Of a DNA stretch of 46,150 bases, positions 15,001 to 18,000 are shown one piece after another. Every line of letters starts with the position of its first letter. Positions within the stretch are counted from its first letter, which is position 1. The position numbers are program-made. Origin of the DNA: Enterobacteria phage phi80; sequence record NC_021190.1, one strand, 5' to 3'.

Positions 15001-18000
15001 GTGCCCTCGGAGCTGGACCGGATCCAGTGCGACTGGTCGGGGATTGAGTGGGGGATCATGTCCTGGCCGGACGGGGATTTTTGTACGATTTCCCCGCGTG
15101 AAGACCGGGATTATGCCGGGCGGCAGTGGGTGCTGGGTTACGCCGACTGCTGGTCGCTTATCCGTGAATTTTATCTGCGCGAATACGGCATTGTTCTCGG
15201 CAATTATTCAGTACCTTACGAATGGTGGGAGAGCGGCAAAGAGCGGCTCTACGATGACAACTGGGAGCGTGAGGGGTTCGTTGAGATTGACGCCGGTGCT
15301 ATGCAGCCCGGGGACATCATCATGATGAGTGTGCAGGCATCGGTGACCAATCACGCCGCTGTATATCTGGGTGATAACATCATTCTCCATCATCTTTTCG
15401 GGCACCTTTCTTCGCGAACGCCTTATGGAAAATATTATCGCGACAGAACGGTCCGGGTGGTCAGGCATAAGGACAGAATGCATGGTTAAGACGCTTATTC
15501 TCGAAGGTAAAATGGCAAAAAAATTCGGTAAACGCGTTCAGTTTGATGTTGCCGACCTGCGCGAGATGCTCAGGGCCATGTGTTCACAGGTTCCCGGATT
15601 CAAAAAATATATGTCTGAAGCTCATATGAAGGGGATCCGTTTCGCCTTTTTTAACGGTGGCAACAATATCGGGCTGGAAGAGTTTGATATGACCCGCGGT
15701 GGAAGCGTGTACCGGATCGTGCCCGTTTATGAGGGGGCCAAAAGTTCGGGCGTCCTGCAGATAGTTGTCGGGGCTGTTGCGCTGGTCGCTGCATTCTTTA
15801 CCGCTGGTGCGAGCATGGCAGCCTGGGGCGCGGCGATGAGTGCAACAGCTATCAGCGCCACGTCAATTCTGACAGGGGTCGGAGTGTCGATGATGCTGGG
15901 GGGCGTTGTCCAGATGCTCACGCCCCAGCCATCCTTCGGCGCGGGTAAATCTTCCAGCACGGACAACACGCCTAACTATGCCTTCGGGGCGCCGGTCAAT
16001 ACCGTCGCTATGGGGCATCCTGTCCCCCTGGCCTACGGTCTGATCGAGGCTGGGGGAGCGATAGTCAGCGCCGGTATGTACTCGAGCGATCAGCAATAGT
16101 GAAATGCAACATAATAAGATGAACGTTACATTGCAATCACCCTTGGTTATCATGTCCAAAACGATGCCGATCAAGGAGATGAAAGTGAAAAAATACGGTT
16201 TGGTCTTATTAGGTGTGCTCTTTATTTCAGGTTGTGCCCCACAAAATCAGAATAACAATTTACAAAAGCAATACGCTGATTTGGCAAATTGTCAAGAGGA
16301 TAACATTACTATGCCAAAACAAATGCCGCATAGTAAAAAAGAGTTTGCTGAATTTTTATCTAAGGAAGCTCTTAATGCCTCAGCAGATCAGTTCGTTACC
16401 CAGAAGCGTATAGAGATTCTGCAATTAGTTGGGTGGGATAATTCGGTTGCTGATGCAATAACGACATGTGGCGCTACCAGAAAGAGCAAGCTGAAAGAAA
16501 TTGGGTCTAATGTGTTTGAAACCATGAAAGCCAATACTAAAGACACAGAGGAACGTCGTGCTCTTGTTGAGGCTTATAGTTCGTGGGAAGCTTATGTAAC
16601 CAGTCAAACGCCACTCGCAAAACAGGACTTTGACTAAAAAGTTAGTTATTACAAAAACATGTAATAAGACGCCATCATTAATATTAACTAATAACCCAGC
16701 TCAGGCTGGGTTTTTTAATGGGGTAAAAATGCAACTTCTCCATGGTGAAACCATCATACAGGGTGCAAAAGGGGGCGGTGGAAGCGCGCATACTCCGGTT
16801 GAGCAACCTGACGATCTGCTGTCGGTCGCAAAATTAAAAATGCTCATTGCCGTTTCTGAGGGAGAAATACAGGGCGACCTGACCGCTCAGAATATTTTCC
16901 TCAACGATACGCCGCTGGCAAACGACAGCGGGGAATACAACTTCAGCGGCGTGAAATGGGAGTTCCGTAAGGGCACACAGGACCAGACCTATATTGCCGG
17001 GATGCCCCAGGTCGATAACGAACTGGCGGTTGGCACAACTGTCACCACCACCGCGCCCTGGACACGCCAGTTTACCAATCTTTCCCTGGATGCTATCCGC
17101 ATCAAGCTCAGCCTTCCGGTCCAGTATCTCTATAAAGATAACGGCGATATGGTGGGCACGGTCACCGAGTATGCGATCGATTTATCAACGGACGGCGGCG
17201 CCTGGAAAACGGTTGTAAACGGCAAATTTGACGGAAAGACCACGACGGAATATCAGCGTGACCACCGTATCGATCTGCCAAAATCCACGTCCGGCTGGTC
17301 TGTCAGGGTCAGGCGTATTACGGCTGATGCCAGCGGATCAAATTCGAAACTGGTTAACGCCTTCAAGGTGTTTTCCTATGCGGAAGTCATCGACAGCAAG
17401 CTTCGTTATCCTTTAACCGCGCTCCTGTATGTCGAAGTGGACAGCAGCCAGTTCAACGGCAGCGCGCCGAAAGTGACCTGTAAGATAAAAGGCAAGCTGA
17501 TTAAGGTTCCGGATAATTACGATCCGATAACCCGAACCTATTCTGGCTCATGGTCCGGCGGGTTCAAAATGGCCTGGTCCAATAACCCCGCCTGGATATT
17601 TTACGATCTGGTTCTGGATGAAATTTACGGCATGGGCACGCGCGTGGATGCGTCCATGGTGGATAAGTGGGCTCTGTATTCAATCGCCCAGTACTGTGAC
17701 GAAATGGTTTCCGACGGGGCCGGTGGCACCGAACCGCGTTTCACCTGCAACGTTTTCATTCAGAGCCAGGAGGACGCCTGGCAGGTACTTAACGATCTCG
17801 CCGCGGTATTTCGTGGAATAACGTTCTGGGGCAACGATCAGATTTATGTCCAGGCAGACGTCCCGCAGGACGATGTTGACTGGGTTTATAACGCCTCAAA
17901 TGTGATCGATGGGCTGTTTACTTATGCGGGCGGCTCATACAAGAATCGCTACAGCTCCTGCCTGGTGTCCTGGTCCGATCCGCAGAACCATTACAGCGAT

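What the first reader, a model, noticed from the sequence alone, without database searches (positions are those of the whole stretch)
16126..16716. Self-contained lipoprotein moron inserted between tail genes I and J
Between I and J, which are adjacent in lambda, there is an AT-rich gene for a lipoprotein (lipobox LFISGC) with its own promoter-like TTACAT-16-TATCAT and a perfect terminator 13 bp before J. Lipoproteins next to receptor-binding tail genes (T5 Llp, phi80/N15 Cor) block the phage's own receptor to exclude superinfection, and the gene's placement beside J suggests the same role. The terminator directly in front of J also implies J expression needs read-through.
Basis: partly seen in the sequence, partly recalled or inferred. 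Interest (0 to 1): 0.65.

Follow-up and report, generated by a model that had tools for sequence, protein, structure and literature searches.

The report
Phage phi80's known lipoprotein moron
This is morF, an already annotated add-on gene of phage phi80 that encodes an outer-membrane lipoprotein and sits between two tail genes; its function is unknown, and comparison with relatives argues against the proposed role of masking the phage's own receptor.

Summary
The window is phage phi80. The feature is real, and GenBank FN582354.1 already annotates it as "MorF lipoprotein precursor; moron gene product", with the same promoter, signal peptide and terminator. It is a 611-bp AT-rich cassette (38-40% GC against 54-61% in the flanks) placed right after the I stop codon. 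Phages mEp213, mEp043 and LLS have the same I and J genes without it. The promoter TTACAY-N16-TATYAT travels with the gene. The protein is under strong purifying selection (dN/dS about 0.07-0.10). It is predicted to be an outer-membrane-anchored helical bundle with two further conserved cysteines, and it has no informative sequence or fold relatives. The Cor/Llp-like reading is not supported. phi80 has genuine cor 4.6 kb downstream. MorF homologs also sit at the T|H, H|M and K|I junctions and once outside the tail module. Nearly identical MorF copies accompany at least five unrelated J receptor-binding ends. The terminator before J is ordinary: phi80 has a Q antiterminator, and similar hairpins occur at M|L and at the empty I|J site of mEp213. 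phi80's own copy carries a nonsense mutation that removes nine conserved C-terminal residues. The likely role is lysogen envelope protection that is not matched to the receptor. This is inferred, not shown.

The parts
15482..16099 (+). Tail assembly gene I (upstream neighbour); stop TAG at 16097-16099
   Evidence: PF06805 E 3e-6 and PHROG 32 E 2e-65; annotated gene 20 in FN582354.1
16100..16710 (+). Extent of the inserted moron DNA relative to phages mEp213/mEp043/LLS, which have 34 bp of unrelated spacer here
   Evidence: Three-way alignment of the I-J junctions; 68% query coverage in the MorF-less relatives; GC 0.38-0.40; no flanking direct repeats
16126..16153 (+). Sigma-70-type promoter: -35 TTACAT (16126-16131), 16-nt spacer, -10 TATCAT (16148-16153); annotated transcription start about 16160
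   Evidence: annotated in FN582354.1; the motif is conserved in 14/14 I|J-type and 22/25 H|M-type cassettes, 29-31 nt from the start codon. Promoter activity was not tested.
16173..16178 (+). Shine-Dalgarno AAGGAG, 6 nt before GTG 16185 and 0 nt before ATG 16179
   Evidence: Read from the sequence. The aligned start is ATG in H|M-type cassettes and in L017.
16185..16232 (+). Lipoprotein signal peptide (MKKYGLVLLGVLFISG), cleaved before Cys17
   Evidence: Translation; the lipobox and Cys are invariant in all family members; annotated sig_peptide
16233..16637 (+). Mature MorF (Cys17-Asp150) and its TAA stop (16635-16637). Ala at +2 predicts outer-membrane sorting. Cys36 and Cys95 are conserved.
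   Evidence: AlphaFold helical bundle with pLDDT 79; dN/dS 0.07-0.10; PHROG 8179 E 8e-74, function unknown
16635..16664 (+). Premature TAA (TCA Ser in all relatives), followed by the still-intact ancestral codons KVSYYKNM and the ancestral stop at 16662-16664
   Evidence: Alignment with Eeyore. All 13 other intact I|J copies, and all H|M and K|I copies, read through to ...SKVSYYKNM. tblastn aligns across the stop. The full-length model places these residues in a confident terminal helix, 142-156.
16693..16716 (+). Intrinsic terminator: 8-bp stem, UCAG loop, U-run
   Evidence: Scan; fold -13.6 kcal/mol, z -2.57; annotated in FN582354.1
16729..20208 (+). Host-specificity tail tip gene J (downstream neighbour)
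   Evidence: PF24801, PF13550, PF09327 and PHROG 31
21298..21531 (+). cor, phi80's genuine FhuA-inactivating lipoprotein moron. It is not part of morF but bears directly on the interpretation.
   Evidence: PHROG 1119 E 7e-37; annotated with its own promoter and terminator; function as described in PMC3594210
41137..41946 (+). Q-like late antiterminator, which explains read-through of the morF terminator during lytic growth
   Evidence: PHROG 127 E 1.5e-92

Best explanation
The feature is morF of phage phi80, a horizontally acquired, self-contained transcription unit made of a sigma-70 promoter, Shine-Dalgarno site, lipoprotein ORF and intrinsic terminator. It lies exactly between the stop codon of tail gene I and the ribosome-binding site of J. 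Shown by sequence and comparison: the cassette is absent from otherwise near-identical phages, its promoter moves with it, the protein is under strong purifying selection, and it has a canonical lipobox with no Asp at +2. Inferred: signal peptidase II processes it, Lol sorts it to the inner leaflet of the outer membrane, and a helical bundle of about 130 residues (probably with a Cys36-Cys95 disulfide) hangs into the periplasm. Also inferred: the repressed prophage transcribes it from its own promoter, and during lytic growth Q-modified RNA polymerase reads through its terminator into J. Its place beside J is incidental. The same cassette occupies several other junctions of siphophage tail modules and does not track J's receptor-binding domain or cor. 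My best guess at function, at about 35-40%, is a lysogen-protecting envelope factor that interferes with a periplasmic, post-adsorption step of incoming phages or another periplasm-acting threat. That would make it receptor-independent exclusion in the manner of HK97 gp15 or Ltp, not masking of FhuA. phi80's own allele lacks nine conserved C-terminal residues and may be impaired.
For: Identity: 99.8% to FN582354.1, where morF, its promoter, signal peptide and terminator are annotated. Moron status: mEp213, mEp043 and LLS show the empty site; there is a GC trough; the terminator is present; the promoter is conserved in 36/39 distinct homologous cassettes although the upstream DNA is unrelated. 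A real gene: dN/dS 0.07 and 0.10; C17, C95, L127 and W134 are invariant and C36 is at least 90% conserved across 20-92% identical members. Lipoprotein sorting: the +2 residue is A, S, T or V, never D. Fold: confident helical models with pLDDT 79 and 86. Incidental position: the cassette is found at I|J, H|M, K|I and T|H, and once in an early region. No covariation: J's last 130 residues range from 86% identity to unalignable among phages with 93-99% identical MorF, and cor is present in only some. Read-through: a Q homolog is present, and other hairpins occur at M|L and at the mEp213 empty site. Protective neighbours at the H|M hotspot: SNIPE nuclease, Rap1a immunity protein, C13-like peptidase and Hok/Gef (SNIPE function from bioRxiv 10.1101/2025.11.03.685801). 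Precedents: HK97 gp15 and Cor (PMC3594210) and the mEpimmI Lpp proteins (PMC11893012).
Against: No experiment or transcriptome was available, so promoter activity, lipidation, localisation and any phenotype are all inferred. The functional guess rests only on context and analogy. No family, defence-model or fold match supports it: Pfam, NCBIfam, PADLOC, PDB and BFVD were all negative. Neighbouring cargo at H|M is variable and often convergently transcribed, so guilt by association is weak. Two of about 15 I|J-type copies carry nonsense mutations (phi80 and L021), which shows the gene is dispensable in some lineages.
Confidence: 0.6

Rival explanations
1. One reading: MorF is a Cor/Llp-type lipoprotein that inactivates the receptor used by this phage's J protein (FhuA). 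It would thereby exclude superinfection and stop progeny being lost on cell debris.
For: It is a prophage-type lipoprotein moron in the tail region, predicted to sit in the outer membrane, where receptor plugs are reachable. Lipoproteins encoded within structural gene clusters do exclude phages that use the same receptor in mEpimmI phages (PMC11893012), as do Cor in phi80, N15 and HK022 (PMC3594210).
Against: phi80 already has cor. MorF shows no homology to Cor beyond the signal peptide. Phages with 93-99% identical MorF carry at least five unrelated J C-terminal domains, and most of them lack cor. mEp213 has a phi80-like J end and cor but no MorF. Homologs lie far from J in most phages.
Confidence: 0.1
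2. MorF is a host-fitness (lysogenic conversion) factor with no role in phage-phage conflict. One option is a periplasmic inhibitor of a peptidoglycan hydrolase such as lysozyme (LprI/DUF1311-, Pim- or Tai-like). Another is a Bor-like envelope or serum-resistance lipoprotein.
For: Four of 23 family members give sub-threshold Pfam LprI matches over the same region, Cys95 to Trp134 (E 0.005-0.19). The best non-signal-peptide PDB sequence match is an LprI-family chain, 6ar7 (E 0.48; its fragment scores 26 bits on PF07007). One member matches pesticin immunity protein Pim at E 0.027. MorF is small, helical, periplasmic and Cys-containing, like known inhibitor or immunity proteins. A Rap1a amidase-immunity gene shares the H|M hotspot.
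Confidence: 0.2
3. MorF serves the phage's own lytic cycle, as a tail-assembly factor, virion-associated protein or lysis accessory. On this view it belongs to the late operon and is not a lysogen-expressed moron.
For: It lies in the same orientation inside the tail operon and would be co-transcribed late by Q-modified polymerase. Most homologs lie in tail modules.
Against: mEp213, mEp043 and LLS build tails with 95-100% identical M, L, K and I proteins and a 98% identical J N-terminal part, without MorF. The gene has its own conserved promoter and terminator and a foreign base composition. Its position varies among four junctions, and one homolog lies outside the tail module. A lipidated periplasmic protein cannot join cytoplasmic tail assembly (inference). 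phi80 propagates with a truncated allele.
Confidence: 0.05
4. In phi80 specifically, morF is a decaying gene. The nonsense mutation at codon 151 inactivates it, so it has no function in this phage whatever the family does elsewhere.
For: Only the phi80 lineage (this window, FN582354.1, and the prophages in XL10-Gold and JCL301) has TAA where all relatives have TCA. The lost residues include a Tyr conserved in at least 90% of the family and the YYKNM motif. The full-length model places them in a confident terminal helix and scores higher overall, pLDDT 86 against 79. Another copy (L021) is a clear pseudogene.
Against: 141 of 150 mature-frame codons, the promoter and the terminator are intact, and 99% identical to full-length copies such as L011. 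The mutation is therefore recent, and the truncated protein may still fold; its bundle core has pLDDT above 85.
Confidence: 0.3

Closest known systems
morF of Enterobacteria phage phi80, as annotated in GenBank FN582354.1 (protein CBH95072.1)
   Same: It is the same locus (99.8% identity). The record already marks the -35 and -10 boxes, the transcription start, the signal peptidase II signal peptide, the lipidated Cys, the terminator and the label 'moron gene product'.
   Different: The record starts the CDS at the ATG two codons upstream and assigns no function. It does not note that the stop codon is premature relative to all homologs.
Cor lipoprotein of phi80/N15/HK022 (PHROG 1119)
   Same: Cor is also a small prophage-expressed lipoprotein moron with its own promoter and terminator in the tail region of the same phage. 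It is a superinfection-exclusion precedent.
   Different: There is no sequence similarity beyond the signal peptide. Cor is 77 aa against 150 aa. Cor inactivates FhuA (PMC3594210), whereas MorF occurs with many different J receptor-binding ends.
HK97 gp15 moron (superinfection exclusion acting at DNA entry)
   Same: It is a self-contained moron inside the tail operon next to the tape-measure gene. A distant MorF homolog (P0059) occupies the same T|H slot. Its exclusion is independent of the receptor and depends on the incoming tail (PMC3594210).
   Different: gp15 is an inner-membrane protein, not a lipoprotein, and no homology was detected. An analogous function for MorF is only inferred.
Lpp exclusion lipoproteins of mEpimmI coliphages (PMC11893012) and T5 Llp
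   Same: These are lipoproteins encoded within or beside structural or receptor-binding genes that exclude phages (T5 Llp from my own knowledge).
   Different: Those lipoprotein types go with the phage's receptor type (OmpA, LamB; FhuA for Llp), and MorF does not. tblastn with MorF-family proteins finds only phi80, Eeyore and Flotzy among 50,697 phage records, so the two groups are unrelated.
Ltp of Streptococcus phage TP-J34 and Spackle of T4 (helical extracytoplasmic exclusion proteins; from my own knowledge)
   Same: Both are small helical proteins on the outer face of the cytoplasmic membrane or in the periplasm. They block the incoming tail's tape-measure protein or tail lysozyme, not the receptor. 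This is the mechanism class I consider most likely for MorF.
   Different: There is no sequence or fold match; neither protein appears among the PDB hits. The resemblance is conceptual only.
LprI/DUF1311 (PF07007) periplasmic helical domain
   Same: Sub-threshold matches cover Cys95 to Trp134 in 4/23 members and in a PDB LprI-family chain.
   Different: The scores are below the gathering threshold. hhalign against the YecT family is negative. MorF is not filed as a member.

Membership tests
Moron (Juhala/Hendrix sense; PMC3594210) | Extra DNA between two genes that are adjacent in close relatives | tested here: met
   mEp213, mEp043 and LLS have 95-96% identical I and J with a 41-bp spacer, where phi80 has 629 bp between the two genes.
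Moron (Juhala/Hendrix sense; PMC3594210) | Own promoter | tested here: met
   TTACAT-16-TATCAT is present. The motif is conserved 29-31 nt from the start codon in 36/39 distinct homologous cassettes, although the upstream DNA is unrelated. This is sequence-level evidence only.
Moron (Juhala/Hendrix sense; PMC3594210) | Own terminator | tested here: met
   Hairpin plus U-run at 16693-16716, -13.6 kcal/mol. Homologs at other sites each have a terminator or further cargo downstream.
Moron (Juhala/Hendrix sense; PMC3594210) | Base composition different from the neighbouring genes | tested here: met
   GC 0.38-0.40 against 0.54-0.61.
Moron (Juhala/Hendrix sense; PMC3594210) | Expressed from the repressed prophage | not testable with these tools
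   No phi80 lysogen transcriptome was found. The transcription start in FN582354.1 carries no evidence tag.
Bacterial lipoprotein (signal peptidase II substrate) | Basic N-region, hydrophobic core and lipobox [LVI][ASTVI][GAS]C | tested here: met
   MKKYGLVLLGVLF-ISGC. The lipobox Cys is invariant in all 23 aligned members down to 20% identity. Weak LPAM_1 hits occur in 6 members.
Bacterial lipoprotein (signal peptidase II substrate) | Lipid modification and outer-membrane sorting (no Asp at +2) | tested here: inconclusive
   The +2 residue is A, S, T or V in all members and never D, which predicts outer-membrane sorting. Acylation and localisation cannot be tested here.
Cor superinfection-exclusion family (PHROG 1119) | Sequence homology to Cor | tested here: not met
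   The only match covers residues 1-30 (signal peptide), E 0.025. Genuine cor scores E 7e-37.
Cor superinfection-exclusion family (PHROG 1119) | Association with a FhuA-type J receptor-binding domain | tested here: not met
   MorF occurs with at least five unrelated J C-termini. Cor is absent from most MorF+ loci and present in MorF-less mEp213.
LprI / DUF1311 (PF07007) | Score above the Pfam gathering threshold (22 bits), or profile-profile support | tested here: not met
   phi80 MorF has no hit. The best family member scores 17.5 bits. hhalign against the YecT family gives probability 0.9% or less.
Known anti-phage defence systems (PADLOC-DB v2) | Match to any defence-protein model | tested here: not met
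   Zero hits for phi80 MorF, P0014 and P0044 at E up to 1.
Virion / tail structural protein | Conserved presence and position in phages with the same tail | tested here: not met
   MorF is absent from mEp213, mEp043 and LLS, which have near-identical tail genes. Its position varies among four junctions.

The most novel reading that the evidence does not exclude
The MorF family would be a previously unrecognised class of prophage-encoded, outer-membrane-anchored periplasmic superinfection-exclusion proteins. It is a small family (27 clusters at 50% identity among 1.84 billion proteins), strongly constrained, and mostly embedded in siphophage tail modules around the tape-measure and tail-tip genes. 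On this reading it blocks genome entry of incoming siphophages after adsorption, whatever receptor they use. That would make it a Gram-negative, outer-membrane counterpart of HK97 gp15 or TP-J34 Ltp. It would also mark the H|M, K|I and I|J junctions as defence hotspots.
Probability: 0.25. Interest if true: 0.55.

Novelty: already known. Interest (0 to 1): 0.25.

Why it matters
phi80 is a classical model phage and a notorious laboratory contaminant, yet one of its few lysogen-type accessory genes has no known function. The comparative picture assembled here turns a vague guess into testable experiments. It consists of a mobile cassette with its own conserved promoter, strong purifying selection, recurrent placement at tail-module junctions next to known defence genes, and no link to the receptor-binding domain. 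It also warns that the phi80 allele is truncated, so a negative result with phi80 itself would be uninformative. If MorF proves to be a receptor-independent exclusion factor, it would add an outer-membrane lipoprotein class to prophage defences. If it does not, it remains an ordinary orphan moron.

Tried and rejected
(1) Family searches. Pfam, NCBIfam and PADLOC gave nothing for MorF. PHROGs gave only PHROG 8179, of unknown function.

(3) The LprI/DUF1311 lead. There are consistent but sub-threshold Pfam and PDB sequence hits. I fetched E. coli YecT, a bona fide LprI member at E 1e-17, and its homologs. hhalign was negative. The YecT set was shallow (at least 59% identity), so the test is weak; the idea is kept only as a minor rival.

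(4) An exhaustive HMMER profile search found only 27 family representatives, all about 160-aa lipoproteins, with no link to a larger family.

(5) Rfam over the whole window gave no hits. A repeat search found no flanking direct repeats or transposon-like ends.

(6) Literature. I found no paper on MorF function. The Lula/phi80 genome paper (Rotman et al. 2012) is not held in the library. The FhuA-phage paper does not mention the gene.

(7) Covariation with the tape-measure protein. L013 has a 98% identical MorF but an H protein only 69% identical, so no strict link exists.
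Full report
**Identity of the window and the feature**

The 631 bases around the finding are 99.8% identical to GenBank FN582354.1, Enterobacteria phage phi80. The only other isolated phages that carry the sequence are Escherichia phages Eeyore and Flotzy, at about 95%. The phi80 record already annotates the gene as [quoted passage not shown]. It marks a -35 box, a -10 box, a transcription start, a signal peptidase II signal peptide, the lipid-modified cysteine and a rho-independent terminator. The same record annotates cor, the FhuA-blocking lipoprotein, downstream of J, gp22 and gp23. 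In this window cor lies at 21298-21531 and matches the Cor PHROG at E 7e-37.

**Checking the observation**

- Gene I ends with TAG at 16097-16099.
- The -35 box TTACAT is at 16126-16131 and the -10 box TATCAT at 16148-16153, with a 16-nt spacer.
- AAGGAG is at 16173-16178.
- The ORF runs from GTG 16185 to TAA 16635-16637. GenBank uses the in-frame ATG at 16179, which abuts the Shine-Dalgarno sequence.
- A hairpin plus U-run at 16693-16716 ends 12 nt before the J ATG at 16729.
- The N-terminus MKKYGLVLLGVLFISG|C fits the lipobox consensus.
- GC falls to 0.38-0.40 inside the cassette, against 0.54-0.61 in I and J.
- No Rfam family matches anywhere in the window, and no flanking direct repeats are present.

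A promoter-like match on its own is not better than chance: the scan found 5 sites against 9.3 expected. The comparative evidence below is what makes the promoter credible.

**Empty site**

Phages mEp213, mEp043 and LLS have I and J sequences 95-96% identical to phi80 at the nucleotide level, but only 41 bp between them. The three-way alignment places the left edge of the insertion directly after the I stop codon. The right edge lies in the terminator hairpin, and the U-run and the J ribosome-binding region are shared. phi80 has 611 bp (16100-16710) where mEp213 has 34 bp. The mEp213 spacer itself folds into a small hairpin followed by U7 (-10.6 kcal/mol).

**The cassette is mobile and carries its promoter**

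Homologs were collected from a protein search (44 clusters), from contig look-ups and from IMG/VR (46 loci). I mapped them against the phi80 tail proteins with tblastn.

| Position | MorF identity to phi80 | Where found |
|---|---|---|
| I\|J | 89-99% | phi80-type tail modules |
| H\|M | 56-63% | Citrobacter/Enterobacter-type prophage tails |
| K\|I | 37-39% | Kluyvera prophages |
| T\|H | 25% | a different siphophage tail module; the slot used by the HK97 gp15 moron |
| Beside AntA/Kil/Gam early genes | 31% | outside the tail module |

The motif TTACAY-N16-TATYAT lies 29-31 nt before the start codon in 14/14 distinct I|J-type and 22/25 distinct H|M-type upstream sequences. The DNA upstream of -35 is unrelated between the two classes, and synonymous sites between them are saturated (dS about 1.2). 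Downstream of the stop codon the sequence differs by context, being either a terminator or further cargo.

**The protein**

- Median dN/dS is 0.07 within the I|J class (14 sequences) and 0.10 within the H|M class (25 sequences), so the protein is under strong purifying selection.
- An exhaustive profile search of 1.84 billion representative proteins found only 27 family representatives. All are lipoproteins of about 160 residues.
- Across members down to 20% identity, Cys17 (lipobox), Cys95, Leu127 and Trp134 are invariant. Cys36 and a C-terminal Tyr are at least 90% conserved.
- The residue after the lipid-modified Cys is A, S, T or V and never Asp. By the established +2 rule this predicts Lol-dependent sorting to the outer membrane.
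- AlphaFold models are confident: pLDDT 79 for the phi80 protein and 86 for a full-length relative. They show an all-helical bundle, with helices at about 19-34, 50-81, 85-116, 120-139 and 142-156.
- Pfam, NCBIfam and PADLOC are negative. PHROGs places the protein in PHROG 8179, of unknown function.

**A truncated allele in phi80**

Every other intact homolog continues past phi80's stop codon with SKVSYYKNM. In phi80 the Ser codon TCA has become TAA. The eight following codons and the ancestral stop at 16662-16664 are still intact. The same allele is present in the phi80 prophages of strains XL10-Gold and JCL301. The lost residues form half of the confident terminal helix in the full-length model. 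One metagenomic copy (L021) carries a CAG-to-TAG nonsense mutation at codon 68.

**Testing the Cor/Llp-like interpretation**

- phi80 already encodes cor.
- MorF matches the Cor PHROG only over signal-peptide residues 1-30, at E 0.025.
- Thirteen phi80-type phages have an 89-99% identical MorF at the same I|J site, and the J N-terminal 600 residues are 92-100% identical among them. Among the eleven whose J gene is complete, the last 130 residues of J fall into at least five types: 82-86% identical to phi80, 60-67% over a part, 35%, or unalignable.
- Cor is detectable in only three MorF-positive I|J loci. It is also present in MorF-less mEp213.
- Most homologs do not lie next to J at all.

MorF is therefore not matched to J's receptor. 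This contrasts with the mEpimmI Lpp exclusion lipoproteins, whose types go with the receptor used (PMC11893012).

**Terminator and J expression**

The window encodes a Q-like antiterminator at 41137-41946 (E 1.5e-92). Equally strong hairpins with U-runs lie between M and L (13992-14015, -16.1 kcal/mol) and after cor, and one lies at the empty I|J site of mEp213. Read-through of terminators inside the late operon is the normal lambdoid arrangement, and it is what allows morons to reside there. This is established knowledge; morons are reviewed in PMC3594210.

**What MorF may do**

The H|M junction where most homologs sit is a variable cargo site. It holds:

- the SNIPE membrane nuclease, found in 9 loci and shown elsewhere to cleave phage DNA during injection (bioRxiv 10.1101/2025.11.03.685801);
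- a Rap1a T6SS-amidase immunity protein (E 7e-14);
- a C13-like peptidase;
- Hok/Gef;
- Arc/Bro-N/ORF6N modules.

HK97 gp15 is a precedent for a tail-operon moron that blocks DNA entry independently of the receptor. On this basis I favour a lysogen-expressed envelope-protection role, most likely exclusion at a periplasmic, post-adsorption step. I put this at about 35-40%. It rests on inference from context only.

A peptidoglycan-hydrolase-inhibitor role was considered because of weak but consistently placed LprI/DUF1311 matches. Profile-profile comparison with the YecT family did not support it. A structural or assembly role is unlikely, because phages with near-identical tails lack the gene.

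**Verdict**

The specific functional interpretation is not supported. The remark about the terminator describes normal lambdoid biology. This analysis adds the family's distribution over several tail-module junctions, the conserved mobile promoter, the strength of selection, the lack of covariation with the receptor-binding domain, and the truncation of the phi80 allele.

Noticed in passing
window 16635-16664: phi80's morF ends at a TAA that is TCA (Ser) in every relative. The nine conserved residues SKVSYYKNM are lost, although their codons and the ancestral stop are still intact downstream. The same allele is in the phi80 prophages of E. coli XL10-Gold and JCL301.
   Followed up: yes
window 13992-14025: A strong terminator-like hairpin (-16.1 kcal/mol) with U8 lies between tail genes M and L, with no moron attached. 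It is followed by TTTTATGGGG, much like the sequence after the morF terminator. mEp213 also has a hairpin plus U7 at its empty I|J junction (L009 7637-7659).
   Followed up: partly
L002-L005, L024-L052 (between MorF and gene M); L067/L068: The H|M junction of Citrobacter/Enterobacter-type prophage tail modules is a variable cargo hotspot (0.1-4.8 kb). It holds the SNIPE/T5orf172 nuclease (9 loci), a Rap1a T6SS immunity protein (L050), a C13-like peptidase (L042), Hok/Gef, Arc/Bro-N/ORF6N modules and several unknown small secreted proteins. MorF is always at its upstream edge.
   Followed up: partly
L059 6001-6504 and L060 3730-4233: A 25%-identical MorF-family lipoprotein lies between the tail chaperone T gene and the tape-measure gene of an unrelated siphophage tail module. 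This is the same slot as the HK97 gp15 exclusion moron.
   Followed up: partly
L021 3362-3565: One metagenomic phi80-like virus carries morF with a CAG-to-TAG nonsense mutation at codon 68, making it a pseudogene.
   Followed up: no
window 20210-21186: gp22 (100 aa, PHROG 557 'outer membrane protein') and gp23 (224 aa, PHROG 425 'membrane associated protein', moron category) lie between J and cor. In the loci examined they are detected in every locus that has cor and in none that lacks it.
   Followed up: no
window 45352-46080: This 242-aa ORF upstream of the packaging module matches PHROG 17079 (function unknown, E 5e-170). PMC11364771 states that phi80 carries a Tai (tail assembly interference) defence homolog upstream of its packaging module. 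Whether this ORF is that gene was not checked.
   Followed up: no
window 16100-16125 vs L001 (FN582354.1): The older phi80 record has two extra single bases just upstream of the morF -35 box (gtgaaaatgc and aataaggatg, against gtgaaatgc and aataagatg here). These are probably sequencing differences, and they shift its coordinates by 25 at this locus.
   Followed up: no
window 16100-16730 vs E. coli genomes: Only 3 of 5,426 complete E. coli genomes contain morF. Two are laboratory strains carrying phi80, and one is a clinical isolate at 89% identity. The family is commoner in Citrobacter, Enterobacter, Kluyvera, Leclercia and Salmonella prophages.
   Followed up: partly
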